A model generated the notes under the pieces. It was not told the DNA's origin. It saw only the letters and a program-made list of their open reading frames with translations, and ran no database searches. From IMG/VR virus record IMGVR_UViG_3300020248_000002: a stretch of DNA of 64,000 nucleotides, one strand, 5' to 3'. The stretch is from a virus. The position numbers and the translations under genes are program-made. Of the stretch, positions 29,860-64,000 are shown one piece after another (the stretch's first letter is position 1; each line of letters opens with the position of its first letter).

Positions 29860-29863
29860 ATGC

Positions 29864-31221: not shown

Positions 31222-31234
31222 ATTATCCTTTAAA

Positions 31235-31773: not shown

Positions 31774-31830
31774 TTCACATATATTAGAATTATTCGCTAT
31801 AATTAATATAACAACACTAACTAACCCACT
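31774..31830 (+). promoter_or_regulatory. Class B-related element B8
   Basis: TTCACA-18-TATAAT, ACAACACTAAC leader. Confidence 0.65.
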
Positions 31831-40813: not shown

Positions 40814-43800
40814 ATGAAGTCAGTTAAGGTATCCCAACGGTTACAGGACCAGATCCCTGCGTTTATAAAAGAAGAGGATCAGTCTTTTGTAGACTTGCTA
40901 GTACAATACTACAAGTCACAGGAGAAAAGTGGTAAACCGTATGATATTTTAAACAATATTTTAAGTTATACAGATATTTCAAGTGACGAATATGATCCTA
41001 ACTTTATTTCTTCATCATCTATTGTTTTAGATCGCATAGGTGCTACTGATCAAAATATTACTGTAGAAACTGTTGATAATTTTCTTGAGAAAGATGGAAC
41101 AATAAAGATTGATAATGAAATTATTTTTTATGAAGAAACAACTAAATCACCAGAGGTTGTATTTACTCCAGGTGTCAATAAGTTAGAATTTGATAAGAAA
41201 ATACAAGAGTTAGAAAATATAAGACCTCTATTTGATGGAACTGAAACAAGTTTCCAATTAAAACTACTTGGAACTCCAATTACACCAAGTTCTGTTGAGT
41301 ATTTACGTGTTATAATAAATGGTTTGCAGTTAGAACCTAATGTTGATTATTTTCTTGATGGATCAAACATTAGATTCCAAACTCCTCCTGCAAACCTTGC
41401 AGGATCAACTACAGTAACTAAGATTGAATATCTTATAGGTTATACAAGTGTTCCTGTTAGAGTTTTAGATGTAATTAATATAACTGACGACCTTGTAGGT
41501 GCAAAAATACTTCCATTAAGGTTAAACACTGTTGTATATACACCTTTATCTACAGTATCTTGTTTGATTGCTGTAAATGGAGTGGTTCAAGAACCATTTA
41601 CTGACTACACAGTTTATAATGATCATTTAATACTAAAAAAAGCAGTATCTTTAAATGATAAGATTACTGTAAGGTCTGTTGAACTAATTGCACCTCAATT
41701 TGGTAAAGGTGCTTCTGCTATTGCTAGAGTTAGTGATAATAAAGTTACAGATTTAATTGTAAAAAATGGTGGTCAAGATTATAGAATTAATTTCACACCA
41801 AAAGTAACTATTCTTACTCCAGAAGGTGTAACTGGTAAAGAAGCGACTGCTGAAGCACTTGTAAATGGTATTAAGAATGTACAATTAATTGATGGTGGTC
41901 AAGGTTATACTTCTGCTAACCCTCCTGTAGTTGTATTTGATACACCCGCAGATCCTTCTGGTTCTATAGCAAAAGCAACTGTAACTGTTGATGATGCTAC
42001 TGGTCAAGTCACAGGAATTAACGTACAATCATCTGGATCTGGATATGACACTATTCCATCCATTAGTTTTACAAATGCAGCAGGTGCAACTATTAGTGAT
42101 GCTCAAATTGACTCGGAAGGAAAGGTAGTTGATGGATCTATCCAAGTATTAACTAAAGGATTACATTATACAACTGCTCCAGAAGTCTATATTGATGCTC
42201 CTGTTGATCCTATTGGTATTAGAGCATCTGCCATAGCAGTTTTAGATGATCAGAGCAGAGTAGACAGGATTGAAATGATTTCTCCTGGTAGAGGATATGT
42301 AACTCCTCCTAGATGTCGTATTATTGATCCTATAGGTGCTCAAATACTTGATGTTAAGGTATCTGGTGGTAAATTAACTGATATTCAACTTTTAACTGGT
42401 GGATCTGGTTACAATGATGCACCATCTGTTTATATTGTTGATAATAGAAAGAATTTATCTGGTGAAGCAATAGGTGGAACTGGAGCAACTGCTGTTGCAA
42501 CAATATTCAATGGTGAAATTACTGATATTAATATAACAAGTTTTGGTGATGGATATTCTGATACTGAACCTCCACAAGTCTTTATCGCAAGTCCAAAAGC
42601 AGCAGCAGCGTCTTGTGATGTTGGATTTCAAGAAATAACTGGTTTTACAGTTCATTCACACGGTTCTGAATATCAACCATCACAATTTAAGAATTGTAAA
42701 AGAGGAGTTTCTGGTGTTTCTTCATATGATATTAGAGGAAACCAAGTATTTACTAATGAAGCACAAAGTATTCAATCTTCACACGAAGTTGGAACTTCTA
42801 TAGAAAATTTAGATTCTTTATTTGCAAAAACACTATATGAACGTTTTGTAAATCAATTCTTACCTGATGCTGATATTGATTACACTACAATCAACGCTCC
42901 ACAGATTGTTAAGACAATTAAAGACTTTTATGTCTCTAAAGGTACAAAAACTGCTACAGAATACTTATTTAAAATATTATTCTCTGAAAATGTTGATGTT
43001 TCATATCCAAAAGATGAATTAATCAAACCATCTGCTGCAACTTGGTCTGTTGACACTATTATTCGTGTTGAATTGATAAGTGGTAATCCAGTTGATATTT
43101 TAGACTCTCAATTATTCCAATATGCAGATGCTGTAGATACAACTGTTGGAAATGCTGTATGTTTAGTTGAAAACGTTATTGCAATCAACACTGGTGATAG
43201 AACAATCTATGAATTATCAATATCTGAGGAAACTTTAGAAGGTAAGTTCTCAATACCTTATAAAACCACTCTTGTAGAACCACTAACGACAACTGAGTCT
43301 ATTATAACTGTTGACTCTACTATTGGGTGGCCAGAAAGAAACGGTATCATCATTATGGGTGATAGTGAAAGAATACAATATAAAGAAAAATCATTAAACC
43401 AGTTTATTGAGTGTACACGTTCTAAAAATGGTATTGTAGAAGATTGGGATTCTGGTACTCCAATTTACTCTGATATTTTCTGTTATATCAATAGAGGACT
43501 AGATACTGAAGTAAAATTACGTGTTCTTGGTATTGCTGAAGCAACAGGAACAGTTCTTACTGATACTGGTTCATATTATCTTCCTAGTGACAAATTAAAC
43601 GTAGCATCTCTTGGTTCTTCATCTACAGATCAGAGAGTTACATCTTGGTTATATAATGTTAAAAAATTAATCTCTGTAAACAATATTGAACCAGGTGGTC
43701 TTAATAACCAGACTGCAACTGTTTACACTACAAATAATCACGGTCTTCTTGTTGGTGACTCTGTAACAATCTATGGTGCAAACCCAACGATATTTAACGG

Positions 43801-46800
43801 TACGTTTTCTGTAACTTCTCGTATTAGTGCTACTGTATTCTCATATCAAATATCTGCTCCTGCACCTAATTCACCTCAAGGTAACATTTTGATGTCTGTT
43901 GACCTTAATAAAGGTAAATCAGATGAAGAATCAATCAATAACTCTATCGCACAATTTACAACTAATGTACAAAATACGTTCTTCAACTCAAATTACTCTT
44001 ATATTGCTACAACAGGTATTCCAAACTATAAAGTTGGTCCGTTCATTGGGTCTGCTCTACTCCCAGGAAACCAAAGAAAGTTAAGTAGATTTCCTAGAAT
44101 TGTTGATACTGTATCACGTCGTGATGATTTATCATTTGGTCCTATTGGATGTTGGGTAAATGGTGTTGCTGTTTGGTCTTATAAGTCTCAAATTAAGACA
44201 AAATTTGGTGGAATTACAAGTTTTGATATTGTAGATGCAGGTGAAGGATATGACGCTGCTTCTAAACCATTAATTGAAATAAGTGGTGGTGGTGGATCTG
44301 GTGCTGCTGCTAGTGTTGTTGTAAATGGTTCTTTATTTAATGTTGATGTAACAGCAGGTGGTTCTGGATACACCTCATCTCCATTAGTTTCTATTGTTGG
44401 TGGAGGTGGATTTGGTGCTACTGCAACTGCTGTTATTACAAATGGAGTTGTAAGTAAAGTTCTTGTTGAAACACCTGGTCAAGGGTACACCTCAGCACCT
44501 ACTGTAAGCATCTCAGGAGGCAATGGAACAGGTGCAACTGCTACTGCCGAGGTAAGAGGTCCTATTCAATCTATTAGTGTAGATACAGCAGGATCAAGTT
44601 ATACAACTGCACCTAATATTAAATTAAATTCTGGTGAAGGTGCTGTTGCACAACCAATTATTATCAATGGTCGTATTGTATCAATCGCTATTATTAACTC
44701 AGGTAGTGGATATACATCTCCTCCTAATGTAATTATTAATGGTGATGGTTATGGTGCTATTGCAAAAGCAACCATAGGAACATTTGGTGAAGATAAAGGA
44801 CGTGTTTTAAGTATTACTGTTGAGAACAGAGGTATAGGATATTCAACTGGTCTTACAACTATTCGTTGTGAATCTATTGGTCAAGGTGCATCATTTACTG
44901 CAAATGTATTTGAGTGGACACAGAACTTAGAAACTGAACTATCAGGACTAATGGATCCTTCTCGTGGTTATGTATTTGCAGGATATAACACACAATATGG
45001 TGGTGAATATGCACATTTATCAGATCCTAAACAATTACGTTATGTTCTTGGTGATAATGTATTTAAAGATCCATCATCAGGAAATCTTAGAGAACTTTCA
45101 GCAGGACTAAGACACTCTCCTATTATTGGTTGGGCATTTGATGGAAACCCAATATACGGACCATATGGTTATATTGATGCTGCTGATCAGTCATCTGGTA
45201 TTAAGAGATGTGTATCTTCTTACAGAGTAAAACCTGCGTTATTATTTGACAGTGCAACCAATCCAAATCCAGTTCGTGCTGATGGACCACTATTATCAGA
45301 CAAACCCGCAGGAACTTATATAGAAGATTATGAGTATGTGTTCCAAGCAGGTGATTTAGATCAGTATAATGGTAGATATTGTAAGACACCTGAATATCCT
45401 GAAGGAACTTATGCTTATTTTGTTTCCATTGACGCATCAGAAGCAGGTTTACCTGTATTCCCATATGTCTGTGGACCACAATTATATTCAAGACCTGACG
45501 AATGGAACTATAGTCAAGATGCTGTACAAACCAATATTCCTCTTGATGTTGTTAGATTCCGTGATCCTTATGAAGATGTTGACATTGATATTCAACGTAC
45601 ACCTAACCAAGATACAGATACTCTTGTAACTGAGATAGGTGACGAGTTTATCTTTGAAATAGAAGATACTAACAGAGATGGTGTTATATCAACAGAAGAA
45701 GAAAACGAATTAAATTATATCTCAGAAGAACCTGTACTGCAATTATTTGATTACTACCCTAGTGTATCTACTAGATCACAGGTTGATATTGAGATTGATA
45801 CTACTACTAAATTTGAAGATGCTAAAATTAGTGGATTTGTAGTTGAAAACCCAGGTATATCATATAAAGTTAATGATAAGTTGTTCTTTGACGATACAGG
45901 AACTGGTGGATATGGTGCATCTGCTAAAGTAAATGCTGTAAAAGGTATTGATGTCAGTCAGTACACTTCATCTATGGTTAATGATTCACCGTTAGCAAAG
46001 ATTACAACTACTGGTGAACACGATTTAAGAGTTAATGATGAAATTATTGTTGATAGTATTCCTATTATTGATCAAACAAACAAAACATTTAGAGTAAAAG
46101 TTGTATCTGGTGTTGAAACAGTAAATATTAGTCAACAAGGTCTTGGATATAATGATGATATTCCACCAACTTACGAAATTGTTACAGGAACTGGTCAAGA
46201 TTTTAAATTAGAACTTGTACAACTTGAATCTGGTGCTGTTAATACAGTTAATATTATTAACTCTGGATCAGAATATACACCTAGCAATCCACCAGAAGTT
46301 AGAGTAAGTCATCCACAAAGATATAAAAAAGCAAATTATGCTCTTACATTATTAGATGAGAGTAGTGGTATTGAGAAAATAGTAAAACTTAAAGATATTG
46401 TTACTGCTGATGATAGAACATTCTATGTTGTCGGTGAAGCAGATGATGTTGATGGAGATTCAGCAGGATTACTTGCAAAATTCAATAGTGATGGTAGATT
46501 GTTGTGGACACGTACAATGGCACCACTACAACCTGCTGCGGGAGATAAACGTTGTGTATTTAACAGAATTTATCTTGAAAACACATCACCACATTCTATC
46601 TACGTTGTTGGTGAAACAATTCCTAATAATGTCAACTTATCATACAATCCAGACCTAGTTGTTGCCAAATATACCTCTGGATTTGATGCACAGAACAATC
46701 CTACTGCTGTTCCTGTATGGCAACGTGAAATTGCAGGTATATCTGGTTCTTCAAGAAGAGATTATATATCATCCTTAACTATAGATGATAACGGTCAAAT

Positions 46801-49800
46801 ATACGTTGGTGGTACAACAGATACTAACTCTCCAAATCCAGATGATATGTGGATTGCTTTGTTAGATGAACAGGGTGCTATTAAAGAAAAACGTAAGATA
46901 TGTACTGCATCAGGATCAGAACAATTAACAGACCTTAAATTTACAAGTGATAACACCTGTATATTTGTTGGTGTTAATGATCCTGCGGGAACGAGTGAAA
47001 TTATTATTGGTGAAACTAACTATGATAATGTAACTATTAACGTTTCTTGGAGTAGACAGTTTGGTAATACTGGATATAGATTCTCTAATCCTAAAATTAC
47101 TATTGATGACTATGGTTCTAGATACGTAACTGCAACTGCATACCAAATTTCTAATACCAAGAATACTGGTGTTTTGTATATGAAGTTTGCACCTAGTGAT
47201 TACAAAACTCCATCAGTTGTTAAATTACTTTCACCTACTGGTGTATTTGAAGATATACAATCAACTGGAGTTAAATTTGATATATTTGGTAATATTGATG
47301 TTGGTGCATACGTTAAATATGCTTTCAATGATCATAGAGCAATCATATTCAAGATTTCTTGGAATACAAGTAATATATTAACTGCTGCTTCTGTAAAACA
47401 GGTTAGTGGTATTGGTTTCCAACCAACTACAATTAGTAACGATAATTCTGGTGATACTATTATTGCAGGTAATAAAATTGAATCTAATGAATTAGCAATA
47501 CTCAATTTTGAATCAACTATAACTGGAGATGAAACATATAATAATACTTTAACAGCAGGATGGTCTGTAGATCCTACATTAGATACTTCTAAATGGAAAT
47601 ATGGTGCACAGTCAGCAAATATCAGTGCTGCTGCGAATAGACTATCGTTAGACTGGGGTGCTGATGTAGCAACAAATTATACTATTGAAGCGTGGATCGC
47701 TATTGGGCAAGCACAATACAATGCTCAAAGTTCTACACCAAATATTTTTGATGTTGCTCCTACTACAGGTGATAATGCAGTTGTAGAACTAGAAGGTGAT
47801 GCTACAAGTCCTGATTTTGGTAAAGTTCGTTTAAAGTTAGGTTCTAATACTTACCTATCTACAACCACAACTAACTGGACAACATTTAATAACGAAGCAT
47901 TTATACACGTTGCTCTTGTTAAGTCAACTCCTGGTGTTGGTACTTACGTTTATAAAGTATTCATCAATGGTGTTGAACAAATTGATGTAACAAGTACAAC
48001 TATAGATACACAACTTAAATCTATACTATTATTTGGTAAATCATCTCCTGTTGTCGCTAGTTCTATTGGTGGTTGGGTAGATAATATTTCTGTATCAGGT
48101 ATTGCAAAATATAGTGATACATTTACTCCTGCACAAGCAGTTGGTTCTAATAAAACAGTATCTGCTTTCTGCTACAAGTTAGATAGAGAACAAACTAAGA
48201 CTGGAACATATACATTAAACACCGTTCAAACTGGTATGCAGATTCAAGTCGCAGCCGCTGTGAACGACTTTACGTTTAATACCCAGGTGATTACTTCTGG
48301 AGATTGGACATTAGGTCCTGCGGGTCTACAAATACTTGATTATGCTGATGTTGTATCAAATAATGTTGAAGGAACTTACTCATTTACGTCTACAGATCAG
48401 ATATATGAGACTAGAACTGCTACTATCCCAACACCTCTTGGTAGAAAACTACTACTAAGCACTACTGTTATTCCTAAATTCTATATTCGTGATGCAATAT
48501 ATCAGTCTATTGATACTGTAAAGACAGTAACATTTAACCAAACAGCAAACTTTACTAAAGGTTCTATATTACAACAGTATTCAGTTATTGGTGGACAAGA
48601 TGTAGTCAGTGCATACGGTACTATTGTAAATGTTCGTGGAGCACAAGGACAGGTTGATATTGGTAATATTATTGGTAATTTTGATACTACTAAGAAATTA
48701 AAATCAACTGCAAATGATGTAAACCTTATTAATCAAACATTTTTAGTTGAAACAACTATACCTCAATGGTTTACAAACTTCAGTTATACAACTGGAGATG
48801 AAGTTTATAATGCAGGTAAGATCTATACAGCAGGTTCTACTGGAGTTTCTGGTGCTAGTGCTCCTATTCATACGATTGGTACAGTAACTGATGGAAATAT
48901 AAACTGGGTATATACTCGTGATGCAGGTAGTTTTAATATAGATCTTGCAAATACTTCATATTCTAGTGGAACATTAAATCAATTTGGTTCTTGGAGACCA
49001 TTTGTAGCAACAGATTACTCAATTAGAATTGAAGCAGTATATGAGGGATCAGCATTTATTAAAGGTGATAACATTGATGCTGACGCTGTTGGTCTTTCAG
49101 CAACATTCGATGCTACTGGAAAGATAATAACAATATCAGGTTTAGTTGGAGTTAAGAAATTCCATCTTACATCGAATCTTGATAAAGATATTATTCCAAC
49201 TGGTGCTCTAGCATTTACAGATTTAGTATTCTGTGTTTCTACAAGTAGGCATAATTTTACTCAAAACGAAATTATATTTGTTGAAGGATTTACAACAACT
49301 GAATATGGTGGATCATTCTTTGTAGAAGAGGTTCTTGATAGTAGAAGATTCTTATATCGTTTAAGATCAACTGCTGTACAAGATCCTTCATTTACAAGTT
49401 CTACTATTGCAAGTGTTAATATCTACGCTAAACATCCACAATTATTATTTGTTCGTAAACATCAATACATATTTGACCTTGATGATCCATCTAATTTTGG
49501 ATATTATATGTCGTTCTCTAAGGATAATCAATATAAATTAGAATATCCTTTTGTAAACATTGTTAGAGAGGGTATCCCAGGTTTAACTGACCAAACATCA
49601 CCTAAACCACTTGTTAAGTTTATTGTTGATGAAGATGTTACCAATATTTCATATTACTTCGATCCATCAAGAACTCTTCCAAGTAACTCTCCTGTAGGTG
49701 AAGCATCATTTATTGACGTTATAGAAACTCCTTATAAAGGAACATTTAATATTAATCAGATATTATCAGATACAGAATTTACATTCCCACTTCTTGTAGA

Positions 49801-52800
49801 ACCAGAAAAAACAACTGCTCCTTTAGGAACAACTGAAACAGGTCTTACAAGAGCATCTTATAGTACAACTTCTCTAAAAGCGATTGGTCCTATTGCAAGT
49901 ATCAAACTGGTAAACCCAGGTGGTTTCTATCAGAAATTACCTATTGTTACTGATATATCATCTGATAGAGAAATTGAGAAAATACGTATCATATCTGGTG
50001 GTACAGAATACATTAATGGCATCTATTATAATGTTCCTATTGCAGGAGATGGTGAAGGTGGTCTATGTAATATTACAGTTGCAGATGATGGTGAATTAAC
50101 AGGTGTTATTACTGCTGTTGAATTAACATCTCCAGGTAAAGGATATACTACTGCATCTATTGATATTGATACTATTCCAGGAATATTGGGATCACTATTA
50201 CAAGGTTCTGGTGGACAACTTGATGTTGTAATTCCTGCTGAGGGATCTGGTGCATCTGTGTTCTTACAAGGTACAAGTATTGGTAAGATTAAGAAACTTA
50301 AAAATAATGAATTTGGTTTCGGTTATTCTCACGATTATACACTAAGACCTGAGATTACATTCCCTGTAAACCTTCAGTTGTTTAATACTGCTATACTTTC
50401 TGAAATTAAGGTTACAGATCCTGGTTCTGGTTATACATCAATTCCTAGAGTTGTTATTGAAGGTGGTGGTGGATCAGGTGCTGAAGCAGAAGCGATTGTT
50501 AAAAATAATAGACTATCTGAAATAATAATTAAAAATCCTGGATCTGGATATAGTTCTGAACCATCAGTTACACTTAAGTCAGAATTTAACTATGTTGTAA
50601 ACCTTGATTTAGGATATTTACAGTTTAACTTCCCACACGGTATTACAACTGGTGCTGCTGTTCAACTTAGAGCAGAAGATTTAGGATCTACAGTTGGTGT
50701 TCTACCAAAACCAAGTTCAGCAGGTTTGGTTAGTTTAAGTTCTACAACCACTTACTATGCTATTGCAGGTGAGGCAAATTCACTTGAAGCAGACCAACTT
50801 AGAATAGCACTAACACAAGTTGATGCTGAGTCTGGTAACTTTATTACATTCTTAACTCAAGGTGATGGTCGTCAGATTCTTCTTACTGAAGTATTTGGTG
50901 GTCAAGCAACTGCTATTGTACAAACATCTCGTTTCTTAAAAGGAGAACTTGTATATCAAGGTTCATCCCTAGAAACTGCTACTGCAACAGGTTACGTTTC
51001 AGATAATGAAGGTTGGCAGATTGGTCCTCGTATATTAAAACTTGAAAACTATAACGGAAATTGGACTGTTGGAGAACGTGTAACTGCACAGGTATCTCGT
51101 GCATCTGGTTTGATTGATAACTTATCTATTGCTCGTGGTACATTGAATATAGACTCAATGACAACCACTACTGGTCAGTTTATTGATGACATTGGTAAAC
51201 CATCTGAAATTGTACAGAAAATTCAAGACTCTTACTTCTATCAGAACTTCTCTTACGTTATTAAATCACAAACTCCTATTAACGAATGGAGAAAGAGTAT
51301 TCTTGAAACCAATCACCCAGTTGGATTCAATATGTTTGGTGAATTGGCACTTGCAGCAGGTAAAGATATATCAGGAAGAAAGGTTGTATCTGATCTTGTT
51401 AAAGAAGTTAATATCTTTAGTGCTACTAATATTAATCAGATTACATCTTTTGCTAACTCACAACCAATATATACCGAGTTTAATAACACTGAAGTATTAT
51501 TCAGACAAAGAAGACTTACTAACTCTGAAGAAATCTTAACTTCTATTGTTAAAAAACTTGATAATATTGATAATGACTTTAATGGTGTTAAAACACAATT
51601 CCCATTGACTGTAGAAGGTGAATCTGTAACTGCAACTGATGATCAATTATTGATTCTTATTAACGGTGTTGCCCAGTCACCTGGAACTGCATTCACAACA
51701 TCTGGTCCATCTGTTGTATTCTCAGAACCACCTAAAGCACCATCAAGAATTAAGTTTAGAAATCTTACATTCTCTCAAATTAATATTATAAGATATACAT
51801 TTAGTACAACATCTGGTATTTTCCCACAAACAGGTAAACCTGTAAGGTCTTTACAGAACGAGGGAACTGCAACTGTCATTGATAGTGGTGTAGATTACAT
51901 TGATGTTATCGATGTAGAAGGTACTTTCCAGATTGGTGACAATGTTTTAGCGTCATCTAGTGGATTTGATGGTACATTAAGTGCTGTAACTGGTTTAACT
52001 AGCAAAACAATTTACGAACAAGGTGAAAGAATAACAAATTTACAAGGTGATTTTGCAATTATTGAAGAAAATAACCTTAGAGATGGTGTTGTAGACGCTA
52101 GATTGGTAGTTTCTCGTACATCTGGTACATCTGAATTTGAAACTGGTGACTTTAATATCAAATTTAACGACACAATATACTCTGCTGCATCTAAAATTGC
52201 TGCAAGAGTTACTGTAATTGCACCATATACAGACGATGTATCTCAACAAATCATTGATACTGTTGATTTATCACCTCCATCATCATTCTTTGGTCTAATT
52301 TTCCAACGTGTTCCTTCAATTACCTATCCAAATACTATCTTAGACAATATTTCTGAGACAGTTATCAATCCAGAAGAACTATATGAAGAGGGAACTGCTA
52401 ATAACCAAGACTTCTTAGACTTTGAAGAGGTAAGAAACCAAGAAATTAGATATAATTATCTGTCAGGATCACAATTTGTAGCAGGTGACTCAATACGTAA
52501 CAAACAAATCTACTATGATAACGCTTCATTAGTAGGTGTAGACGATCAACGTTCATTTGATGCTGCTGTATTGATAAGAAAGAATGCTAGATTCATTGCT
52601 GAAGAAGCAGTTGGATTAATGAAGGCATTTTTCCCATCATTTGTAGTTCCATCATTAGGTGGAGATAGAGATTGTGAAGATGATATTGTAGATATTTTAA
52701 ATATTGTTGCATATCAATTAGAAGTTGATGGTAACTCAGAAATCTGGGATGCTGCTAGTACATATGTACAGGGTAATGCAATATATCACGTTGATGGTGA

Positions 52801-55800
52801 AGTAGCACAAACAATATACGCATTTAACAAAGCACGTGATTTAGCGATACAGTGTATCCGCAATGAAGTTATTAATACAACTACCACTAATCTACCTCAA
52901 TATAGAGATCCTACTATCACAGAAGAGTTTGCTGTTATAAGCAATAGTCACGGTGATGCAAGAGATTTAATTCTTGCTAATAAATGGTTCATTGCATATG
53001 AAGCATTACATTATGCTAAAACACAAAATCCAGGATATAACGTATCAGGTGGAGATGTTCATTGTTTATCTGATATTGTTGATGTTCTTGAAGCGATGGT
53101 TTATAACTTAGCACACGGTGGTAATAACTTTGTATATAAAGCAACTAAGAAAACTCTACAGTATGGTGTAACATCTGGTGATAGAGATACTATTGTAGAT
53201 GCTTTTACTAAGGCAAGAGATATTGCTATTGAAGTAATGAGAAATAATGCTTGGACAAAAGCAGGATCTCATAACTGGAATCAAGTAACTGATACATCTA
53301 TAACCGCTGATCCTGCAAACCCAACTTGTCAGGCAGTTGCATCAGCAATTACTACACTAATGAATATTTTGATTACTAATCTTGGATCAACTGCATCTCC
53401 AGGAACAGTAGCAGCATTTGAAGCAGCAGTAACTGAGACTGCACCTTCTGGAGCGTATGCAGGATATACTAACAGTTGTGTTAATCAGGCAAATGCTATA
53501 ACATCCTATATGAGAATCATTACTGATACTCTAGAGGATCCTACAGGTGGCACTCCTGCAACATATCAGTGGGCAATTACTAATGTACCTCGTGTTCTTC
53601 CTCCTTATGCTTTTGTGGATGGAGAAACTTTACGTTGTGCTAAACACGCTTATAGAGATAAATCATCTGGTGGATTCTTTGTATTTGGTGATACTGTAAG
53701 AGCAGTTACATCAGGTGCAACATATGATGTTATTGGATCTAATGCAGGTAACAAGTGGATCTTCTCTAAACAGATTAGTGGTGTATTACAAGCAGGTGAG
53801 TACATAACCAACTCTAAACTTACATATGCAAACGTATCTCAAGATAAATTAACATTTAAAACTGATTCTGGTTCACTTAGATTTACTGGATCTGGTTCAT
53901 ATGCTACTTTCCCATCAAGTAATGCTGTATTATTTGGTGATGGAGCAGATGCTGCTACTGGTGACTATACAATGGAATTATGGATACGTCCTGCTTCTGT
54001 TACTGGCACACAGAGACTTATTGATCTTAGAGAGTCATCTTCTGACACTAAGTTAGGTATATTGATGTCTGGTCAGTCACTTCGCTTATCTATAGGTGCT
54101 AGTGATGTAATTACTGTTAGTTCTGCTATTACTACAATCAATAACTGGTATCATATTGCAGTATCTCGTTCTACAAGTGTTACTAAACTGTTTGTAAATG
54201 GTCAGCAGATGGGTACATACACTGATACAAACAATTATAATGCAAATAGTAAGATTACTGTTGGTGCAGGATGGAACAATGGTAATCCTTTCAATGGTTG
54301 GATTGATAATCTTATAATCCGCAAAGGAATTTCCCAGTACAATAGTAGTTTTACTCCCCCTATTATCTTTAACGATAGTACAGATGTATCATTCGCACTT
54401 CTTGGTGAAGCACCATTCCCTATGGAACAGAGTGCAGTATATGCAACATACGTTAATCATATAATATCTACTGCTACTGCTGATGAAGTTGAGCTATGGC
54501 GTTCTGAACTTACAACTGAAGGTGTTGATCTTAGTCGTGAAGAATATAGAATATGTGCTGAAGTTATACGTAAGAATATTGACTATATTGCTGAAGAAGC
54601 AGTTGGTCGTCTTAAGTATAGATACCCTGATTTTGTCATCCCTGGTGATGGTGGTATGAGTGGTTATGGATCTAATGTTTGTCTACGTGATACTAAATCA
54701 TATATTATTCCTGCTATAATTGACGATCTTATATCAGGTGGTAACTTCCAAACAACCATTGTTGGTCGTGCTTACATTGAAGGATCTGGTGCATTACAAC
54801 ATATTGGTGGTGAGCAATTACAATCAATCTATACTTGGAGAGAAGTTGCAAAACTTTGTATTGATGTAATTACATTAGATGAAGCAGATTTAGAAGGAAC
54901 TTATTCAACTAAAGTTCGTGTTCCTAATTATTTTGCATCTCCTGCATCTTCACAGATACAAACTGATATTATGACTCTTGTAGATGATCTATTAGATGTT
55001 ATAGGTCCTACAGGTCATAGATTTAGAGATGGTGCTGATTTAATTTACTTTAATAGAAAAGCAATCGCTGATGAAGCAGTATATTATATTGAAAACAAAT
55101 ATCAAGTACAAGTTGGTTTCTCAACAGTAAATAAACTAACAATACCTAATAGAGCAAAATGTGTAAGAGATATTAGAGATCATATACTTCCTGCTATTGC
55201 AGGTGACTTGGTTACAGGTGGTAACTTTGAAACTCAAGCAATGATTGATAGTTATCTCGATAATGAGACTAATATCAATTATATTGAAGATGAATTGCTT
55301 GCAATGATTGATGCGATTGAATATGCTAAGAAGTTAGCACAAAAAGCAATACAAGGTTTATTAATTGGTAGAAATGAGAACCCTGCTCAAGTCGCTGCTG
55401 ATTTCTCTGATTACTATCAGATGTTATACACAGATGAGTCTGTTTATCGTGACGATACTATTACAATAGATCCTAAAGCATATACTGGATCTGATAGAGA
55501 TCTTGACGCTGCAAATCTTTTACAGCAAAATGCTAAGACCATTGCAGGTGAAGCAGTTGATATTCTAACTAAAACATCGTTTGCACAATCTAAGAAGTTT
55601 AGAGTTCCAGGTGGTAAAGTTAACTGTGAAGATGATATTGTTGACATCATCGAATCTGTAGCACACGATTTACGTTTTGGTGGTAACAGCGAGACATATG
55701 ATGCTGCTGCTTTATACTTAAATACTGATTTAGCATTAAGTCACGTAACTAATCAATCTGATGAGACAATCTATGCGTTTAAGTTAGCAAGAGATATGTC

Positions 55801-58800
55801 AATCCTAACCATCAGAAACCGTTTAGGGTTTACTCCCTATGAGAGTGAGGCAGCAACAGGTGGATTAGGACAAGCAATACAGAGACCTGATTACTATAAT
55901 AATGCTACAACCAATGGTTACTATGATGCTGCAAATGAAATTGAAAATAATATAAGATTTATCGCTACAACTGCTGTTGGTCGTGGTATGTCTCAGTATC
56001 CTAATTTGGCATTCTCTGGTGGTTATAATTATCAGTCTTGTGTTGATGACGTTGTAGATTTACTTGAAGCATTAGTATTCAACTTAAAGCACGGTGGTAA
56101 CAACCGTATGTGGTATTCAAGTGAGTTCTATATTACAGTTGGAAATGCTATACAGCATATTAGTAACCAAGCAGCAGAAGTTAAATATATCTTTGAACAA
56201 GCAAGAGATATTGCAATACAAATAATGAGACAGCAGATTGTTACAATTAATGGTGTAACAGAAGGAAGTGCAATATATGATTCTAGTATTACTATTGATG
56301 GTACTAATACAACAGTTGGTAACTTAACTCCAACAAATGTAGAATACTTCCCAACTACAGGTAATTTAAGACTTACTGTTAATGGTCATAACTTAACTAC
56401 AAGTGATAGTATTCAACTTGCTCAAAACTCATTAACATTTACTTGTGATTTTGATGGTAATGCAACAAACCATACATATCCAAGACCATTAGATCCTTCT
56501 AGCGGTGCTTTATTACCAGTTACAGCATTTACTACAAATACATTTACAGTAAATGTAGGAACTACTGCTAACGGAACTCACGATGTTACTGATGCAATAT
56601 ATGAAGAAGCAACTGGTAATCTATTCTTAGATATTGGTACAAATAATCTTAATGTTGGAAGACATATTAAGTTCTCTCAAGATTATGCAATAACATTTAC
56701 TTGCACAAAAGATGGTAATACTACTAACCACGCATATCCTCGTCCTACTGACTATGCTAGTGGTAAATCATTAGAAGTTTTAGAAATTAGTGATTCTGCG
56801 TTTACAGCAACAGGAGCAACATATTCACCTACTACTGGTGCTATGACCCTGACTGTTCCTCAACACGGATTTAGTAATGGTGATCAGATAAGACTTGTTA
56901 ATAATTCATTGAACTTCACTTGTACAATGGATAACAACTATAGTGTACATTCTTATCCTCGTGCTAGTGATCCTGCATCAAACCAGTATCTAACAATCAG
57001 CAACGTTGCTACAAATACTTTTGATGTAAACGTTGGTTCTACAAATACTCTAAATTATACTCCATCAAATGTTGTTTACAGTCCTACTACAGGAGATATG
57101 GTTATCACAATCGGTAATCACAGTCTTGTTCCTGGATCACACATTAAGATTGCTGATAATTCATTAATATTTACTTGTTTAGAAGATAATAATGCTACTG
57201 AGCATTCATATCCTAGAACAACAACTACAATACATCAGAGCACTGCTGCTGTATATGAACCTACTACAGGTATGATGCAGTTGACTGTTCCTCAACACGG
57301 ATTTGCAAATGGTGATCAAATTAAGATTGCAACTGATTCTCTAACATTTACTTGTGGTCAAGATAACAATCAAACAAATCATACATATCCACGTGCTACT
57401 GACCCTGCTGCTAATTCTTGGTTAGAAATTTCAGATGTAACTGCAAATACATTTAAAGTTCAAGTTTTATTATCTACTGGAATACCTTCAACAAATACAA
57501 CACCACACACATATGTTTCTTCTGCTACAAATAATATTACTTGGAAGAAAGATAGAGCATATGATGTTCCTTTAGAAGTAAAAGCAGTTGGTCAAACAAC
57601 TATTACAGTTAATGTTTTAGCATCTGGAAGAATCCCATCTACTAACGTAACTACTCATACATTTGTAAATGCTGCAACAAATGCAATAAGTGCAGGTGGA
57701 AATTACACTCATACATTCATATCTGCTGCACCTGGAGGTGTTAGATTTAAGAATGGACGTATTAAGGTTAATGTAAACCCTGCACCTACAAACGAACAAT
57801 ATCCACATACATTTGTAAGTGCTGTTTCTGGTGCTGTATCTTATGGTGGTAATCATCCTCACAACTTTGTAAGTGCTAATACTAATGCTATAACCTTTAT
57901 TATTGGTGGTGGTGGAGTTCGTTGTGTAAATGAAGCAGCGTCTATAACAACATTAATGGGTATTCCTATCAATCTATTTGATAGTAGTAATACAAGTAAT
58001 CCTACAGCATATCTAAATGGAATTACGAGAACATTACCACTCGAATGGCCACTTACAGGTGAACGTGCTATTAGACGTGACGTTTCTATAACTTACGATT
58101 CAGCAGGTAACGGAAACTGCACCACACAGAGTTCAGCGATTAATACCCTTTGGGAGATACTTATTAATACTATTGATACTGCTGCTCAAGGAAATGGTAG
58201 TCATCTTGCAACTATAACCAGAACTGCACCTGTCACTAACAACACTGTATATAAAGGTGGAACTTGTTACGATGTCACATCTGCTGCACACGTACTATTC
58301 AAGACACTTCTTCACGGTCTTGGAAGTGGCACAGAGATGTATAAACAATCTGCAAGATTATTAATATACAATGACACATATACTCGATTAGAATCATATG
58401 AGAAAACTTTAAATCAATATCCTGGTTATGCAGGAGATGCTTCGTTTGCTGAACCAATACAAAAAGCGATTGTATATGACTTCATTACAAATGGTAATGC
58501 TAGGACTTTACAATTAGTTAACTCTTGGTTTGATGCTGATGGTAATTTCGTAGCATACCCAACACTCTTTAGAACTCGTCTTCTTTATCACGCAAGAATG
58601 ATTAAAGAGTTGATGGATCATATCTTAAAAGGAACTGCACCTGATCCTGGTGTAAATGCTAACCAACCTCTTTATTCACTTGATGGAACTAATCCTGATA
58701 GAGAATTACGTCCTACTGCGACTGCATCTCATAAGTTACATCAATTATTCCACTTAATATTAACTGCGTTACAATACTCACAATTCCCAACAACATACTT

Positions 58801-61800
58801 AAGAACACAATTTGACGCAGGTGTTGCTGTTTATGATGGAGTTATTAATGTTGCTAATAACTTTGAACCATATGATAGAGTTGCTTATATTGTTCTAGGA
58901 TCTAATATTCCAGAACTTGATGGAACAACCTATTATGTACATCCTAATTCAACATCTAATAAGATAGTTCTTACAGAATATATTGATGGAGAACCAATAT
59001 ATCTAAGTCCAGGTCTAGCATCACAGTTACATACACTCGCTGTTGAAGTAGATCCAGGTGTAGATCGTGTACCTACAACTTATGGAACACGTGATGTACC
59101 AACACCAATCAAAGCAGGTTTCAACCTTGCTGATGTTATCTACGGTGGAACATCTGGTGCTACTGCTCAGATAGTTCGTATGGAAGATAATTTAGCAGAT
59201 ATTATGTATCAGGCAAAATATATGACCTGTAATACATTCTCTGCACAAGGTGGTGGAACTGGAATCAAGATTCAGAATGGTGAGACAGTTGTTGTTCAAG
59301 GTGCTACTCAAAATACTGGTAAGGTTCTTGCTACTGATAACGAGACATATATTAAGTTGATTGATTACAATGGAACATTTACAGCAGGTGATACTATAGA
59401 AGGTGTTACATCTGGTGGTACTTGTACATTTGCTGATGAGCACGATAGACTTCTTGTTAATTTCCGTCAGGGTGAATTTATTGCAACTGATAAGTTCTTC
59501 TCTACAGATACTGGATCTAAAGCAACTGCTCTAATTGTTAGAAACAATAACGGTGCACTAATTGATAATCAGAGTGGTAGAATCACTTACGACATCACCA
59601 CAGTAACTGGAGAGTTTAAACCCCAAGATGTTATCTATGGATCTGTTACTGATCAAATTATTGAAATTGAATCTTTTGTTACTCTACCTAATTTTGGTGA
59701 GTATGTACACGGTAGACAAATTACAAGACTTACATATGTTCAGTTAATTACTGATACAGGTGTTACTGATACATTTAATGTTGGTGATGTATTACAGGTT
59801 CAATCTGGTGGTATTAGTATTGGTTGGACAGTGACTGTTACTGAGATTGATACAAATAATAATTACGTATTTGTTGCAAATGAAACTGGAACTCCAGAAG
59901 GTGTAACTATTTCTGATATTGCAAGTAATTCACAATATCAACTTGCTAAAGTACCAGTTGGAACTCTATTCCCATCCGTATATACAGGAGTTGCAGCAGT
60001 TACAATAACAGATACAACAGCATACGGTAAGATTGCTAAGATTACACAGTTTGGTACTCGTGCTGTTCTCCACTTAGAAGGAACAAGTGGAACATTCCAG
60101 AAGAACTCACAAATTATTGGAGACAATGGTTTCAAAGGTGCTTGTTCATCTGCTAGATCTTTAAGAGGTAGAGTACGTAGATTCTTTAGAGGATTTGATG
60201 GTGTACAAAAGGCATTTAAACTAACTCAAGGAAATGGTACACAATACTTCCCAGATCCCGCAGGACATATGATGATCTTTGTGAATGGTATCTTACAACC
60301 ACCTGGTGCTGACTACGCATTCACAGCATTCTCAGATAACATACAGTTTACTGAAGCACCTGCTATAGGATCAACTTTCCACGGTGTATATAAAGGTAAG
60401 TTAAGACAATTAGATGATATATCATTCGACTTTGATTCATTACGTAACTCATTCAACTTAAAGTTAAATGGAGTGTTCTACTCATTGACTTTAACTGATG
60501 GTGTACAATCAAATACAATCTTACCTGAGAACAATATTATTTGTCAGTTAAATGGTGTTATACAGGAACCTGGAATTGGTTTTGAAATTGTTGGTTCTAG
60601 AATTATCTTCTCTGAAGTTCCTCGTGCAGGTTCAACCTTCGTTGCATTCTCTTATGTTGGTTCTGATGTTGACGTTATTGCAGCAACAGTTGTACCACCT
60701 ATTGAAGCAGGTGATGAACTTATCATTGATGGTGAGGAAGAAACAAGAACAGTTGCTCTTATTGAATCATCTAACTCTCTAATTACATTTGAGTATGGTG
60801 GAGCAGTTAAAGGACGTAATGCTTCTGCACTTGCTGAAATTGAAAAAGGACGTATTACCAATGCGATATTAACAAACTCTGGTGATGGTTATAGTACAAG
60901 ACCACAAGTTGATGTTATATCTTCAACAGGATTTGGTGGACGTATTAAGGCACTTGTTGGTGTAGCAAGAATTGATGTTAAGAACGCAGGTCAAGGATAT
61001 TCATTACCTACTATTGTTGCAAATACAACTGTTGCAGATGATTTCTTAGGACCTACAGGACCTGCATTAAATGGTGGTATTGATATTTACGATCCTAACT
61101 TCATACCTGTAACAGGTGGTACTGGAGTCATAGAGAACTTTATAACAATAACTGAATCACCTAGAAATATTACTGTTAACCAAGGTCAGACTGCTACATT
61201 CCAAGTTGCAGCAAAAGTAACAATATCTAATGTTGTTGCTTATCAAATTAATGTTGCTGATAAGTCTGTTAACCATCCTTACTATGGTCAAGGATCTGGA
61301 AAAGGTTATAACTTTACTGGTGGTCAATTTAATTCAAGCACTGAAGCACCAACACTTGTATTTGTTCGTGGAGCAACATATCAGTTTAATCAAAACGATG
61401 TTACCAATGCTACTCACGCACTTTACTTTAGTGAAGATGCTACTGCTTATGGTGGCAATAGTAGATATGAGACTGGTGTTGTATATCGTCTTAACGGTAA
61501 TCAAGTTGCAGACTACGCAACATATGCTGCGGGATTTAATGCTGCTACAACACGTAGTGTTAGCATTACAGTCGCTGCTGATGCTCCTGCTACTCTTAAT
61601 TACGTATGTGGTAATCATCAGTATATGGGTTCAGCAATTAACGTTAACAACGGAACTCTTTCATATCAGTGGCAGAAAAAAGATTATGGAACATCAAGTT
61701 GGAACAATATCACTGGAGCAATTAGTTCTACATATACAACTGCTGCTACTACACAGGCAGATACAAATGATGAATATCGTGTTGGTATCACATCTAACGG

Positions 61801-61908: not shown

Positions 61909-63276
61909 ATGGCAGCAAATGGATCCTATAATAGTAGCAATAATGTCCTAACAGTAACTGGCGATGGTTTGCCATCTCCAGTGAACTCAGGAACTTTTCC
62001 TAATGCTAACAATTCAAACACAATTACATCATATGCTTTCAACCACAACTTTGTTTACAGAGGTGGATCAAACACGTCTGATTCTGGGGTTGTCGGTTTG
62101 GGTGCTATTGGTATTGCTGCAAACGGTGTCGTCTTCTTTAATCCTAGTGCAGGAACTGATGGGTCGCCCCCGTCAGGATTTTCCTACGTGGCAGCGGGTA
62201 TTGGTTCTGCTGTTAATTATGGAGAAGATAGTTGTGGTGGGTATCCTGAGTCAAGTGGTCAGTACCGTTATAACGACAGCGACTTCATAGATTGTTGGAA
62301 TGCCAATCAAGTGATGGCAGGATATAATGATTACTATGGTTCATCTCAATATAATGGTGATAATATTAGACACCCTGATGGTCACTCTAAGATAATAGGT
62401 TATAGTTTTGATGGTTATCCTGTGTATGGTCCTTATGGATATACAGATGCTAATGATAACACTACACCTGTAATCAGAATGTCTTCTGGATGGACAGTAA
62501 GAACTCAAGAAGCACCTGGAAGACCTGCATATGATACAACATACCCCGCAGGTGTGTTTATGGAAGATTATGAATATACTGGTGGAACAGGAAAGTTAGA
62601 TACACATAACGGTAGACATTGTGTAACACCTGAGTATCCTAGTGGTACTTTTGCATACTTTCTTACTGAAGATAATTCTGGAAATCCAGTATTTCCTTTT
62701 ATGATGGGTTTGACCTCGAAAGAGGCAATGGTAGTACCTGCCAATGATGGTTTTACACAAACTGCACCACCTACTGATGATGGTGGCGATACTCCCGATC
62801 AACCCCCTACTCTTGTAATTACAAATCAACCAACAAACGCTACTATTCAAAGTGGAAACCTTCAACAGTTTAGTTTGTTAGCAGAAATACAACCACAAAA
62901 TGATACTATTGCATATCAGTGGCAAGTATCAACAGATGGTGGATTTGCTTGGTCTAACTTAACTGGTAATACATCAGCAACACTGAATATAAATGCTCAA
63001 CCATTTATGACAGGTTATCGTTATAGATGTGTGTTGACTGGTCCAGTTGGTGCATCTACTCAAGCACAAAACTCACCTTTAATAAGTAATTTGGCGATCC
63101 TTACTGTAACAGGTAGTGGAACGACTATAGATTATGCCAGTATCCTCAAATTTGACAGTGGTATTGGAAAATACGATATGACTCCAGTTAATTTTGACAG
63201 GGATAATAACAACCCTGACTTTACTATACAGAACTTTACACTGGATAATTCGACAACTTCCTTCGATATGACATAA
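61909..63276 (+). CDS. YHYH-like domain plus Ig-like structural protein
   Basis: GAIGIAANGV.FF...GHSKIIGYSFDGYPVYGPYG...LD.HNGR...TPEYP.GT.AYF; ITNQP...YQWQ.S...YRYRC; CTAAATA at 61897. Confidence 0.75.
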   Translation: MAANGSYNSSNNVLTVTGDGLPSPVNSGTFPNANNSNTITSYAFNHNFVYRGGSNTSDSGVVGLGAIGIAANGVVFFNPSAGTDGSPPSGFSYVAAGIGSAVNYGEDSCGGYPESSGQYRYNDSDFIDCWNANQVMAGYNDYYGSSQYNGDNIRHPDGHSKIIGYSFDGYPVYGPYGYTDANDNTTPVIRMSSGWTVRTQEAPGRPAYDTTYPAGVFMEDYEYTGGTGKLDTHNGRHCVTPEYPSGTFAYFLTEDNSGNPVFPFMMGLTSKEAMVVPANDGFTQTAPPTDDGGDTPDQPPTLVITNQPTNATIQSGNLQQFSLLAEIQPQNDTIAYQWQVSTDGGFAWSNLTGNTSATLNINAQPFMTGYRYRCVLTGPVGASTQAQNSPLISNLAILTVTGSGTTIDYASILKFDSGIGKYDMTPVNFDRDNNNPDFTIQNFTLDNSTTSFDMT

Positions 63277-63303
63277 ATAAAACTGTAGAAAAAACCCCCT
63301 ACT

Positions 63304-64000
63304 ATGGCTAAGCAGAATGTAAACGTCGGTGTATCGGCAAATGATGGTACAGGAGATACCCTCAGAGACGGTGCTATAAAACTTAATAACGTAATTAACG
63401 AGTTATACACCCAACTTGGTGATAATACTAATTTGCAAGTTAGTATTGGATCACCATCAACAAACCAAGTCCTTAAATGGAATGGAACAGTATTTACAGA
63501 AGGAGATCTGGCATCATCTAATTTGACTGATGTTGACTTGACTGGTATTGGAAATGGTCAAGTACTAAAATGGAATACAGCAAACTCAAGATTCCAACCT
63601 GGTGATGACTTACAAGGTAGTGGTGGCGGTGGGGGCAATGCCATTACTAACTTGACTAACAATGGTTCTAATAACGTTGTTATCTCAACTCATTTTCTAC
63701 CAAACACCGACAACACATATGACTTAGGTAGTAACTCACTTAAGTTTAGGGATTTATATCTATCCAGTTCTACTATTTGGATGGATGATACAGGTATTTC
63801 TATAGGATCTGATCAAGAAATTACTCGTAGAAAGAGAAAAGCACATACTGTTCATAGTATAGACACAGGTGCTACTCGTACTATTACATCTAAATTAGCG
63901 TCAGAAAACTCTACAGAAGAAGAGGGTCTTCGTTTACGTTTTAGTGCGATGAAAGTAGGAACACCTCTAGAAATTGAGGATGTTAATGGTAATAAAATTG
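63304..64000 (+). CDS. gp9/gp10-like baseplate tail-fibre connector, 3'-partial (not in track)
   Basis: MAKQNVNVGVSANDGTGDTLRDGAIKLNNVINELYTQLGD; QVLKWNG repeats; CATAAATA late motif at 63272. Confidence 0.8.
   Translation, partial: MAKQNVNVGVSANDGTGDTLRDGAIKLNNVINELYTQLGDNTNLQVSIGSPSTNQVLKWNGTVFTEGDLASSNLTDVDLTGIGNGQVLKWNTANSRFQPGDDLQGSGGGGGNAITNLTNNGSNNVVISTHFLPNTDNTYDLGSNSLKFRDLYLSSSTIWMDDTGISIGSDQEITRRKRKAHTVHSIDTGATRTITSKLASENSTEEEGLRLRFSAMKVGTPLEIEDVNGNKI

What the first reader, a model, noticed from the sequence alone, without database searches (positions are those of the whole stretch)
52559..58510. Phycobiliprotein-like repeats with bilin-type Cys motifs in a virion protein: a possible light-sensing baseplate
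Seen: six repeats such as AEVIRKNIDYIAEEAVGRLKYRYPDFVIPGDGG...VCLRDTKSYIIPAIIDDLISGGN and AKCVRDIRDHILPAIAGDLVTGGN (the others have CEDD, CLSD, CEDD, CVDD), then ...AF.KARD.AI, and later closing helices TCQAVASAITTLM, SCVNQANAITSYM, RCVNEAASITTLM, NCTTQSSAINTLW and TCYDVTSAAHVLF. Known: phycobiliproteins read roughly I..NA..IV..A...L....P.LI.PGG...ACLRD/KCARD...YA..AG(G/D)...KMKD.A...DCSALASEIASYF, with bilins on Cys82/84 (CxRD) and beta-Cys153/155, the latter attached by T-type lyases. Many cyanomyoviruses encode bilin synthesis (ho1, pebS, pcyA) and a CpeT-like lyase with no clear target, and some adsorb only in light. Inference: these may be globin/phycobiliprotein-fold domains that are chromophorylated and give the virion a light sensor or antenna mimic. 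Counter-evidence: the two Cys types tend to be present or absent together (repeat 7 lacks both), which also fits structural disulfides. No bilin genes lie in this window.
Basis: partly seen in the sequence, partly recalled or inferred. Interest (0 to 1): 0.88.

Follow-up and report, generated by a model that had tools for sequence, protein, structure and literature searches.

The report
Phycobiliprotein-fold domains in cyanophage baseplate protein
A 7,028-residue baseplate protein of a T4-like cyanophage contains six (plus one decayed) domains that are true relatives of the host's light-harvesting phycobiliproteins; two keep the full pigment-attachment site, so the virus particle may carry a bilin pigment, which is testable but not shown.

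Summary
Window 52.5-58.7 kb lies in one 7,028-aa ORF (40814-61900) at the gp7 position of a T4-like baseplate module. It holds six ~130-aa repeats, a degenerate seventh and five Cys-led "closing" helices.

The repeats are phycobiliprotein (PBP) homologues:
- PF00502 scores above its cut-off on the half-protein.
- A 114-repeat profile hits only PBPs in the PDB (E 2e-6); hhalign gives 95.7%.
- AF2 models match PBP beta chains (Z 16.0, rmsd 2.2 A, 138 residues).
- In the model a closing helix serves as helix H of the outer domain, so the domains are nested.

Across 1,137 repeats from 151 proteins the bilin-site motif C-x-R-D is kept (Cys 96%, Arg 92%, Asp 99%), and 81% have that Cys as their only one. 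In this window only R3 and R4 keep CxRD; R1, R2, R5 and R6 have CxDD or CxSD.

Among cultured phages the repeats occur only in cyanophages. In metagenomes they also occur in psbA-less jumbo phages that carry heme oxygenase plus bilin reductase. P-HM1, P-HM2 and S-PM2 (light-dependent adsorption) have them; P-SSM2 and P-SSP7 do not.

Bilin attachment and light sensing remain untested. I found no publication. This scan has noted the same family in at least 73 other genomes.

The parts
40814..61900 (+). Giant virion/baseplate protein, 7,028 aa, at the gp7 position after the gp25-like and gp6-like genes
   Evidence: ORF. PHROG 701 'virion structural protein' and 2885 'baseplate wedge subunit'. PF23786 Baseplate_wedge 28.3 bits against a cut-off of 27, plus YHYH and LamG domains.
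52535..52936 (+). R1, PBP-fold domain (res 3908-4041), site CEDD; outer domain of the first nest
   Evidence: In model m914ffba4135a, R1 plus helix 321-337 aligns to PBP beta 31-177, Z 16.0.
52934..53320 (+). R2, PBP-fold domain (res 4041-4169), site CLSD; inserted between helices G and H of R1
53321..53383 (+). Closing helix c1 (res 4170-4190, Cys4172); inferred helix H of R2
   Evidence: Helix 266-286 in the model. Cys invariant in 17 orthologues. Assignment to R2 is inferred from the nesting.
53477..53536 (+). Closing helix c2 (Cys4222, helix 4225-4241); helix H of R1 in the model
   Evidence: VIA model range 5..337 aligned to PBP beta chain 32..177 with 138 aligned residues. Cys invariant in orthologues.
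53918..54313 (+). Laminin-G/ConA-like lectin domain between the two repeat blocks
   Evidence: PF13385, 70.8 bits. This is the only part that hits non-cyanophage phages.
54524..54949 (+). R3, PBP-fold domain (res 4571-4712) with the complete C-L-R-D site
   Evidence: PF00502 19.1 bits alone. AF2 pLDDT 84.6. VIA Z 11.9 to PE beta, 11.6 to the ApcE bilin domain.
55001..55462 (+). R4, PBP-fold domain (res 4730-4883) with the complete C-V-R-D site
55466..55912 (+). R5, PBP-fold domain (res 4885-5033), site CEDD
55901..56308 (+). R6, PBP-fold domain (res 5030-5165), site CVDD
56321..57913 (+). Beta-rich insert with five ~75-85-aa repeats (T-F-T-C-x2-D-x-N-x3-H-x-Y-P-R), between R6 and the later closing helices
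   Evidence: Translation. Cys at 5211, 5297, 5370, 5455, 5514. PHROG 5342/1276. Not folded here.
57923..58321 (+). Closing helices c3, c4, c5 (Cys5704, 5769, 5818); inferred H helices of the R3-R6 nest
   Evidence: Motif. Assignment is by analogy with the R1/R2 model, not modelled.
58319..58738 (+). R7, degenerate repeat (res 5836-5975) without Cys, Arg or Asp
38287..40794 (+). gp25-like and gp6-like baseplate wedge genes immediately upstream
   Evidence: PHROG 261/43 and PHROG 219.
61909..63999 (+). Downstream virion protein and gp9/10-like gene
   Evidence: PHROG 25852. PF07880 T4_gp9_10_N.

Best explanation
Shown by computation: the distal half of this gp7-position baseplate protein is built from nested phycobiliprotein-fold globin domains. 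They belong to a large family of such domains in giant virion and fibre proteins of cyanomyoviruses and of uncultured aquatic jumbo phages. Each domain has helices B to G (PBP residues ~32-147) without the X/Y dimerisation hairpin. In this protein helix H is supplied later by a 'closing' helix, after the next domain has been inserted. Inferred: the site Cys84-x-Arg86-Asp87, kept in about 90% of family repeats and in R3 and R4 here, binds a bilin through a thioether. The bilin would come from the host (PEB/PCB) or from phage heme oxygenase plus bilin reductase. Attachment would be either lyase-free, as shown for BBAG globins with the same motif, or through a lyase such as phage CpeT at the Cys that precedes the closing helices. 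R1, R2, R5 and R6 (CxDD/CxSD) are more likely apo or differently liganded scaffold copies. More speculative: a pigmented baseplate periphery makes adsorption light-dependent or protects the particle from photo-oxidation.
For: Homology:
- PF00502 31.8 bits (cut-off 22.2) on the half-protein, and 45-61 bits on family members.
- The 114-repeat profile against the PDB gave 83 hits at E<1; the 60 shown are all PBPs or PBP-derived fluorescent proteins, best E 2.2e-6, with the Cys aligned on Cys84.
- hhalign against 10 Synechococcus PBPs: 95.7%, E 8.5e-9, 107 columns, template 32-147.

Fold:
- R3 model pLDDT 84.6. All top-50 Foldseek hits are PBPs or PBP-derived proteins. VIA Z 11.9 (130 aa, 3.3 A) to PE beta and 11.6 to the ApcE bilin domain.
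- R1-R2-closers model pLDDT 80.5. PBP beta Z 16.0, rmsd 2.2 A, 138 aa, model 5..337 to chain 32..177.

Site conservation: Cys 96%, Arg 92%, Asp 99% over 1,137 repeats. 1,024 have CxRD. 925 of 1,137 have exactly one Cys.

Genomic association:
- The two complete psbA-less jumbo records found through repeats both carry adjacent HO+FDBR.
- Of FDBR-bearing records that are at least 90% complete, 4 of 5 carry 8-25 repeats. These fall in at least four TerL lineages.
- Near-complete relatives of this window's phage carry an FDBR, and one also carries CpeT.
- S-PM2 cpeT lies 1.4 kb upstream of its 3,779-aa repeat protein.

Host range and phenotype: among cultured phages the repeats are found only in cyanophages. 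P-HM1, P-HM2 and S-PM2 have repeats; P-SSM2 and P-SSP7 have none. This matches the reported light dependence of adsorption (PMC6628666).

Precedent: BBAG globins with CXRD attach bilins without a lyase (PMC10151467). The role of phage hemO+FDBR is called 'enigmatic' (PMC11480375).
Against: There are no chromophore data of any kind.
- Four of the six repeats here replace the propionate-binding Arg with Asp or Ser.
- The window has no bilin genes, and its nearest held record, a 49% fragment, shows none.
- Some phages break the association. P-SSM2 and a 56-kb phage have an FDBR but no repeats.
- CpeT-type lyases serve Cys155, not Cys84 (PMC10452541).
- Closing helices add no score to a PBP HMM.
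- The association counts are small, partly selected on FDBR, and not corrected for shared ancestry.
- A conserved Cys-Arg-Asp could have a structural or inter-chain role.
- AF2 models are predictions, and the second rests on only 17 close orthologues.
Confidence: 0.5

Rival explanations
1. Exapted apo module. A phycobiliprotein or BBAG gene was captured and multiplied as a compact helical building block for long baseplate and fibre proteins. No pigment is bound, and Cys/Arg/Asp are kept for folding, for inter-chain contacts in a trimeric fibre, or for inter-chain disulfides.
For: Up to 35 tandem copies per protein behave like a structural spacer. In this window four of six sites have lost Arg while the domains persist and are conserved among orthologues. 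R7 persists without any site residue.
Against: Apo copies should drift at ligand residues, yet Cys 96%, Arg 92% and Asp 99% are among the most conserved columns over 1,137 repeats at about 20% mean identity. 81% of repeats have a single Cys, so no intradomain disulfide is possible. Co-occurrence with HO+FDBR in psbA-less jumbo phages has no explanation under this model.
Confidence: 0.35
2. A ligand-binding or receptor-binding globin domain that uses the same pocket for something other than a bilin, for example heme, a metal, or a host surface molecule.
For: The fold is also close to heme globin sensors (Z 8.3) and photocobilin domains (Z 8.9-9.9). The CxDD variants have an acidic pocket that is unsuited to propionates. 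A lectin-type LamG domain sits between the repeat blocks.
Against: Sequence similarity is specifically to PBPs, not to heme globins. No conserved His appears among the top residues of any of the 135 profile columns. The genes that co-occur make bilins.
Confidence: 0.1
3. Chance or compositional resemblance of an unrelated helical repeat to phycobiliproteins.
For: Single-repeat Pfam scores are below the cut-off, Foldseek E-values are only about 0.02-0.3, and helical folds often give middling Z-scores.
Against: Profile E 2.2e-6 with only PBPs among the 60 hits shown. hhalign 95.7% over 107 columns. Z 16.0 at 2.2 A over 138 residues. The motif aligns in register on Cys84/Arg86/Asp87.
Confidence: 0.02

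Closest known systems
Light-harvesting phycobiliproteins (Pfam PF00502; CpcA/B, CpeA/B, ApcA/B)
   Same: Globin-type fold with helices B to H. K-C-x-R-D-[IV]-G-Y ... Y-x-L-x-x-G-G in helix E, in register with Cys84, Arg86 and Asp87. Closest by sequence to phycocyanin alpha, closest by model to beta chains. A Cys precedes helix H, as beta-Cys153/155 does.
   Different: No X/Y N-terminal hairpin (the hhalign match starts at template 32). Domains are nested or tandem inside multi-thousand-residue virion proteins rather than free ~170-aa subunits. There is no evidence of (alpha-beta)3 discs or of chromophores. Many copies here have CxDD.
BBAGs, bilin biosynthesis-associated globins (Rockwell, Martin and Lagarias 2023, PMC10151467)
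   Same: PBP paralogues outside the light-harvesting role. Some have CXRD, occur in genomes with HO and FDBR, and attach bilins without a lyase. Wegner et al. 2024 name BBAGs as a possible partner of phage bilins.
   Different: BBAGs are small cellular proteins in conserved clusters with V4R or B12 proteins. The phage domains are embedded in structural proteins and are not next to HO-FDBR. I did not test their position relative to BBAGs in a tree.
ApcE (core-membrane linker) bilin-binding domain
   Same: A PBP domain embedded in a large multidomain protein; ApcE attaches its bilin autocatalytically (my own knowledge, not checked here). VIA Z 11.6 to 4xxi_A.
   Different: ApcE has a single PBP domain with a loop insertion, is cytoplasmic and is part of the phycobilisome.
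T4 gp7 baseplate wedge protein and cyanophage giant 'baseplate wedge initiator' proteins
   Same: Gene position after gp25 and gp6. N-terminal baseplate-wedge match. The nearest cultured homologue is annotated 'baseplate wedge initiator' in S-SZBM1.
   Different: About seven times longer than T4 gp7 (my own knowledge of its size), with PBP-fold, LamG, YHYH and beta-repeat insertions.

Membership tests
Phycobiliprotein family (PF00502) | Sequence match to the family profile above the curated threshold | tested here: met
   31.8 bits (cut-off 22.2) summed over the half-protein. R3 alone scores 19.1 and R6 13.0, both below the cut-off. Family members score 44.8 and 61.2 bits. hhalign 95.7%.
Phycobiliprotein family (PF00502) | Globin-like PBP fold, helices B to H | tested here: met
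   Predicted models only. Z 11.9 for a single repeat. Z 16.0, rmsd 2.2 A, 138 residues, up to chain residue 177 for R1 plus its closing helix.
Phycobiliprotein family (PF00502) | Cys84-x-Arg86-Asp87 chromophore site | tested here: met
   Complete in R3 (CLRD) and R4 (CVRD). Cys and Asp only in R1, R2, R5 and R6. None in R7. Family-wide 90% CxRD.
Phycobiliprotein family (PF00502) | N-terminal X/Y helices that form the alpha-beta monomer | tested here: not met
   Profile-profile and HMM alignments start at PBP residue ~32-38. Repeats follow one another with no room for a hairpin.
Phycobiliprotein family (PF00502) | Covalently bound bilin | not testable with these tools
   Needs spectroscopy or MS of virions or recombinant domains.
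Phycobiliprotein family (PF00502) | Second site at beta-Cys153/155 before helix H | tested here: inconclusive
   A Cys precedes each closing helix, and the closing helix superposes on helix H in the model. However, the closers add no PBP-HMM score compared with shuffled controls.
BBAG (bilin biosynthesis-associated globins) | Association with HO/FDBR genes | tested here: inconclusive
   Association is at genome level in jumbo phages and in relatives of this phage, but the genes are not adjacent and none lie in this window.
BBAG (bilin biosynthesis-associated globins) | Lyase-independent bilin attachment | not testable with these tools
   Shown for BBAGs in PMC10151467; untested for the phage domains.
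T4-type gp7 baseplate wedge protein | Position in the baseplate module and an N-terminal wedge domain | tested here: met
   Follows gp25-like and gp6-like genes. PF23786 28.3 bits against a cut-off of 27 at residues 689-736.

The most novel reading that the evidence does not exclude
The particles of many cyanomyoviruses and aquatic jumbo phages are themselves biliproteins. Nested or tandem PBP-fold domains in baseplate and fibre proteins are covalently loaded with PEB or PCB in the infected cell. This would give the long-sought acceptor for phage ho/pebS/pcyA/pcyX/cpeT genes, including those in phages of non-photosynthetic hosts, and a virion-borne photoreceptor that gates adsorption by light.
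Probability: 0.3. Interest if true: 0.95.

Novelty: new variant of a known kind. Interest (0 to 1): 0.8.

Why it matters
Two open questions become directly testable.

1. Why do phages, including ones that seem to infect heterotrophs, carry heme oxygenase, bilin reductases and a T-type lyase? Wegner et al. 2024 call this enigmatic.
2. Why do some cyanophages (S-PM2, P-HM1/2) adsorb only in light, independently of host photosynthesis? Liu et al. 2019 (PMC6628666), citing Jia et al. 2010, say that phage tail fibres and/or host receptors may be light-sensitive.

A virion-borne biliprotein would answer both and would be the first pigment-bearing phage particle I know of. If the domains turn out to be apo, this is still a clear case of a host light-harvesting fold recruited as a structural brick, and a large new branch of the phycobiliprotein/BBAG superfamily. 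Four full-text searches of the paper library found no description of it. That library is incomplete, so this is only a partial check.

Tried and rejected
- megablast of the region against cultured phages found nothing; the window's own record seems to be withheld.
- The window's own assembly is not held. Its nearest record, G001, is a 49% fragment with no CpeT, FDBR or psbA, which is uninformative.
The contexts of the top metagenomic proteins were therefore reached only through IMG/VR loci.
- I tried an unbiased control sample of near-complete cyanomyoviruses through psbA, but almost all contigs were short, so no 2x2 table was possible.
- TerL relatives of the 364-kb phage were all one tight clade at 87-100% identity and were not used as a control.
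- Chimeras of repeat plus closing helix scored no better than shuffled closers on a 10-sequence PBP HMM. Closers alone did not align to the helix-H region.
- My first closing-helix regex was wrong and found nothing; it was corrected.
- Tandem Repeats Finder saw no DNA-level repeats in 56.3-58.0 kb.
- The wide VIA search on the second model had not finished when I stopped. The pdb_via re-alignment was used instead, which can only re-rank Foldseek's own hits.
- Model coordinates cannot be read, so pocket volume and Cys-Cys distances could not be measured.
- I did not run complex prediction, because no bilin ligand is offered.


Full report
**Anatomy.** The finding lies inside one open frame, window 40814-61900 (+), 7,028 aa.
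- It follows gp25-like (38287-38700) and gp6-like (38701-40794) baseplate wedge genes. A virion protein gene and a gp9/10-like gene follow it.
- Its N-terminal part matches the phage baseplate-wedge family (PF23786, 28.3 bits), and the whole protein matches PHROGs of giant 'virion structural' and 'baseplate wedge' proteins. It therefore sits at the gp7 position of a T4-like cyanophage.
- Orthologues at 62-99% identity occur on IMG/VR contigs of 172-187 kb.
- The closest cultured homologue is the 'baseplate wedge initiator' of Synechococcus phage S-SZBM1, at 36% identity.

- Six repeats of about 130 aa align at 27-45% identity to R1. A seventh at 16% has lost the motif residues.
- Between R2 and R3 lies a laminin-G/ConA-like domain.
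- Between R6 and the last three closing helices lies a beta-rich block with five further repeats.

**The repeats are phycobiliprotein homologues.**
- Pfam PF00502 scores 31.8 bits on the C-terminal half (cut-off 22.2). R3 alone scores 19.1.
- A profile of the seven repeats searched against all PDB sequences gave 41 hits at E<10, 37 of them phycobiliproteins.
- I collected 1,137 repeat instances from 151 proteins. I built a 114-sequence alignment of repeats sharing under 55% identity, taken from the window and from loci.
- That profile gave 83 PDB hits at E<1. The 60 shown are all PBPs or PBP-derived fluorescent proteins, the best at E 2.2e-6. It aligns PBP residues 38-104, with the repeat Cys on Cys84.
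- Profile-profile comparison with ten PBPs of a Synechococcus genome gave 95.7% probability, E 8.5e-9, over 107 columns, template 32-147.

**The predicted structures agree.**
- AlphaFold2 of R3 gave pLDDT 84.6 and pTM 0.79.
- The top 50 Foldseek hits are all PBPs or PBP-derived proteins, at prob about 1 and TM 0.5-0.6, but with E only about 0.1.
- An all-against-all VIA search put PE beta first (Z 11.9, 130 aa, 3.3 A). Next came the ApcE bilin domain (11.6), allophycocyanins (11.3-11.4), photocobilins (8.9-9.9), globin sensors (8.3) and haemoglobins (5-6).

**Nesting.** A model of residues 3905-4260 (R1, R2 and two closing helices) had pLDDT 80.5.
- It aligns to PBP beta chains at Z 16.0, rmsd 2.2 A, 138 residues. 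The model range is 5..337 and the chain range 32..177.
- With only about 140 residues aligned across 333, the match uses R1 plus the last helix (321-337, preceded by Cys4222).
- So R2 with its own closer is inserted between helices G and H of R1.
By sequence this could not be confirmed.
- For R3-R6 and closers c3-c5 the same arrangement is an inference.

**The site.** Family-wide, the three bilin-site residues are among the most conserved columns.
- Cys is at 96%, Arg (+2) at 92% and Asp (+3) at 99%. In all, 1,024 of 1,137 repeats read CxRD.
- The family consensus K-C-x-R-D-V-G-y-I-v-D-A-v-a-y-D-L-l-y-G-G-N parallels helix E of phycocyanin alpha.
- 925 of 1,137 repeats contain exactly one Cys, and Cys makes up 0.7% of these proteins. 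An intradomain disulfide cannot explain the conservation.
- In this window only R3 and R4 are canonical. R1, R5 and R6 read CxDD and R2 reads CxSD. These variants are fixed in orthologues and typify the gp7-like giants.

**Distribution.**
- In 50,697 cultured-phage records, the repeat parts of three different queries hit only Synechococcus/Prochlorococcus phages and unassigned marine viruses. Hits to Pseudomonas or Acidovorax phages fall on the LamG part.
- In metagenomes the family is much wider. Many IMG/VR contigs are 12-35% fragments of roughly 350-kb phages, and only 2 of 43 long records have psbA.
- The two complete psbA-less records (271 and 364 kb) both carry an overlapping heme oxygenase / ferredoxin-dependent bilin reductase pair.
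- In the reverse direction, 12 of 26 FDBR-bearing viral records carry 1-25 repeats, including 4 of the 5 that are at least 90% complete.
- TerL identities of 28-45% between groups indicate at least four lineages.
- Near-complete relatives of this window's phage carry an FDBR, and one also carries CpeT. G041 (psbA+) and G028 carry CpeT.
- These counts are small, partly selected on FDBR, and not corrected for ancestry.

**Link to phenotype (anecdotal).** Liu et al. 2019 report that P-HM1 and P-HM2 do not adsorb in the dark, while P-SSM2 and P-SSP7 do. They cite Jia et al. 2010 for S-PM2, whose light-dependent adsorption is independent of host photosynthesis.
- The repeat profile finds 6, 6 and 13 copies in P-HM1, P-HM2 and S-PM2, and none in P-SSM2 or P-SSP7.
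- CpeT follows the same pattern; FDBR does not.
- In S-PM2, cpeT lies 1.4 kb upstream of the 3,779-aa repeat protein, inside the baseplate module.

**Literature.**
- Rockwell et al. 2023 showed that BBAG globins, PBP paralogues with CXRD, attach bilins without lyases.
- Wegner et al. 2024 call the role of phage hemO+FDBR 'enigmatic' and mention BBAG-like partners as a possibility.
- Four full-text searches found no description of PBP-like domains in virion proteins.
- This scan's own notes record the same family in at least 73 other genomes, including the jumbo-phage link and the nesting. I reached the jumbo-phage link independently, and I checked the nesting after reading those notes.

**Verdict.** PBP homology and fold are close to certain, about 0.95. 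Bilin attachment to at least the CxRD copies is plausible, about 0.5. A light-sensing role is speculative, about 0.2-0.3. In this particular protein most copies have a modified site.

Noticed in passing
window 7001-8485 and 8488-10128 (+): Two adjacent tryptophan-halogenase-family genes (PF04820, 338 and 281 bits) in the phage genome.
   Followed up: no
window 56321-57913 (+), residues ~5170-5700 of the giant protein: Five ~75-85-aa beta-rich repeats, each with T-F-T-C-x2-D-x-N-x3-H-x-Y-P-R (a Cys/His/Asp motif that could bind a metal), inserted inside the PBP-domain nest. Followed by P-S-T-N-x-T-x-H-T-F-V repeats.
   Followed up: no
window 44990-45433 (+), residues 1393-1540: YHYH domain (PF14240, 105 bits) inside the giant baseplate protein. 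The downstream gene 61909-63276 matches the same part of the giant-protein PHROGs that overlaps this domain (PHROGs 701, 2885, 4406, 708).
   Followed up: no
window 24000-32000: Low-GC stretch (29-32% against 35-40% elsewhere) filled with small ORFs of 80-180 aa.
   Followed up: no
L144 (G039:283000-292000) and L145 (G028:193000-202000): In the psbA-less jumbo phages the HO-FDBR pair sits near chaperone genes: Hsp70/DnaK and a CsgG-SH3 protein in G039, Cpn60 and thymidylate synthase in G028.
   Followed up: partly
L316 (S-PM2 NC_006820.1 160000-178000): The RefSeq record places 16 tRNA features inside the 3,779-aa 'short tail fiber' CDS under the same locus tag. This looks like an annotation error.
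   Followed up: no
L001-L020 (genome contigs): Repeat-bearing contigs are binned into MAGs of Verrucomicrobiales, Flavobacteriales, Planctomycetaceae, Euryarchaeota, Rhodobacteraceae and others. They are probably mis-binned phage contigs and give no reliable host information.
   Followed up: partly
G069 (IMG/VR 3300020204_000079, 56 kb, 98% complete): A small phage with an FDBR gene but no PBP-like repeats. This is a counter-example to a strict FDBR-repeat link.
   Followed up: no
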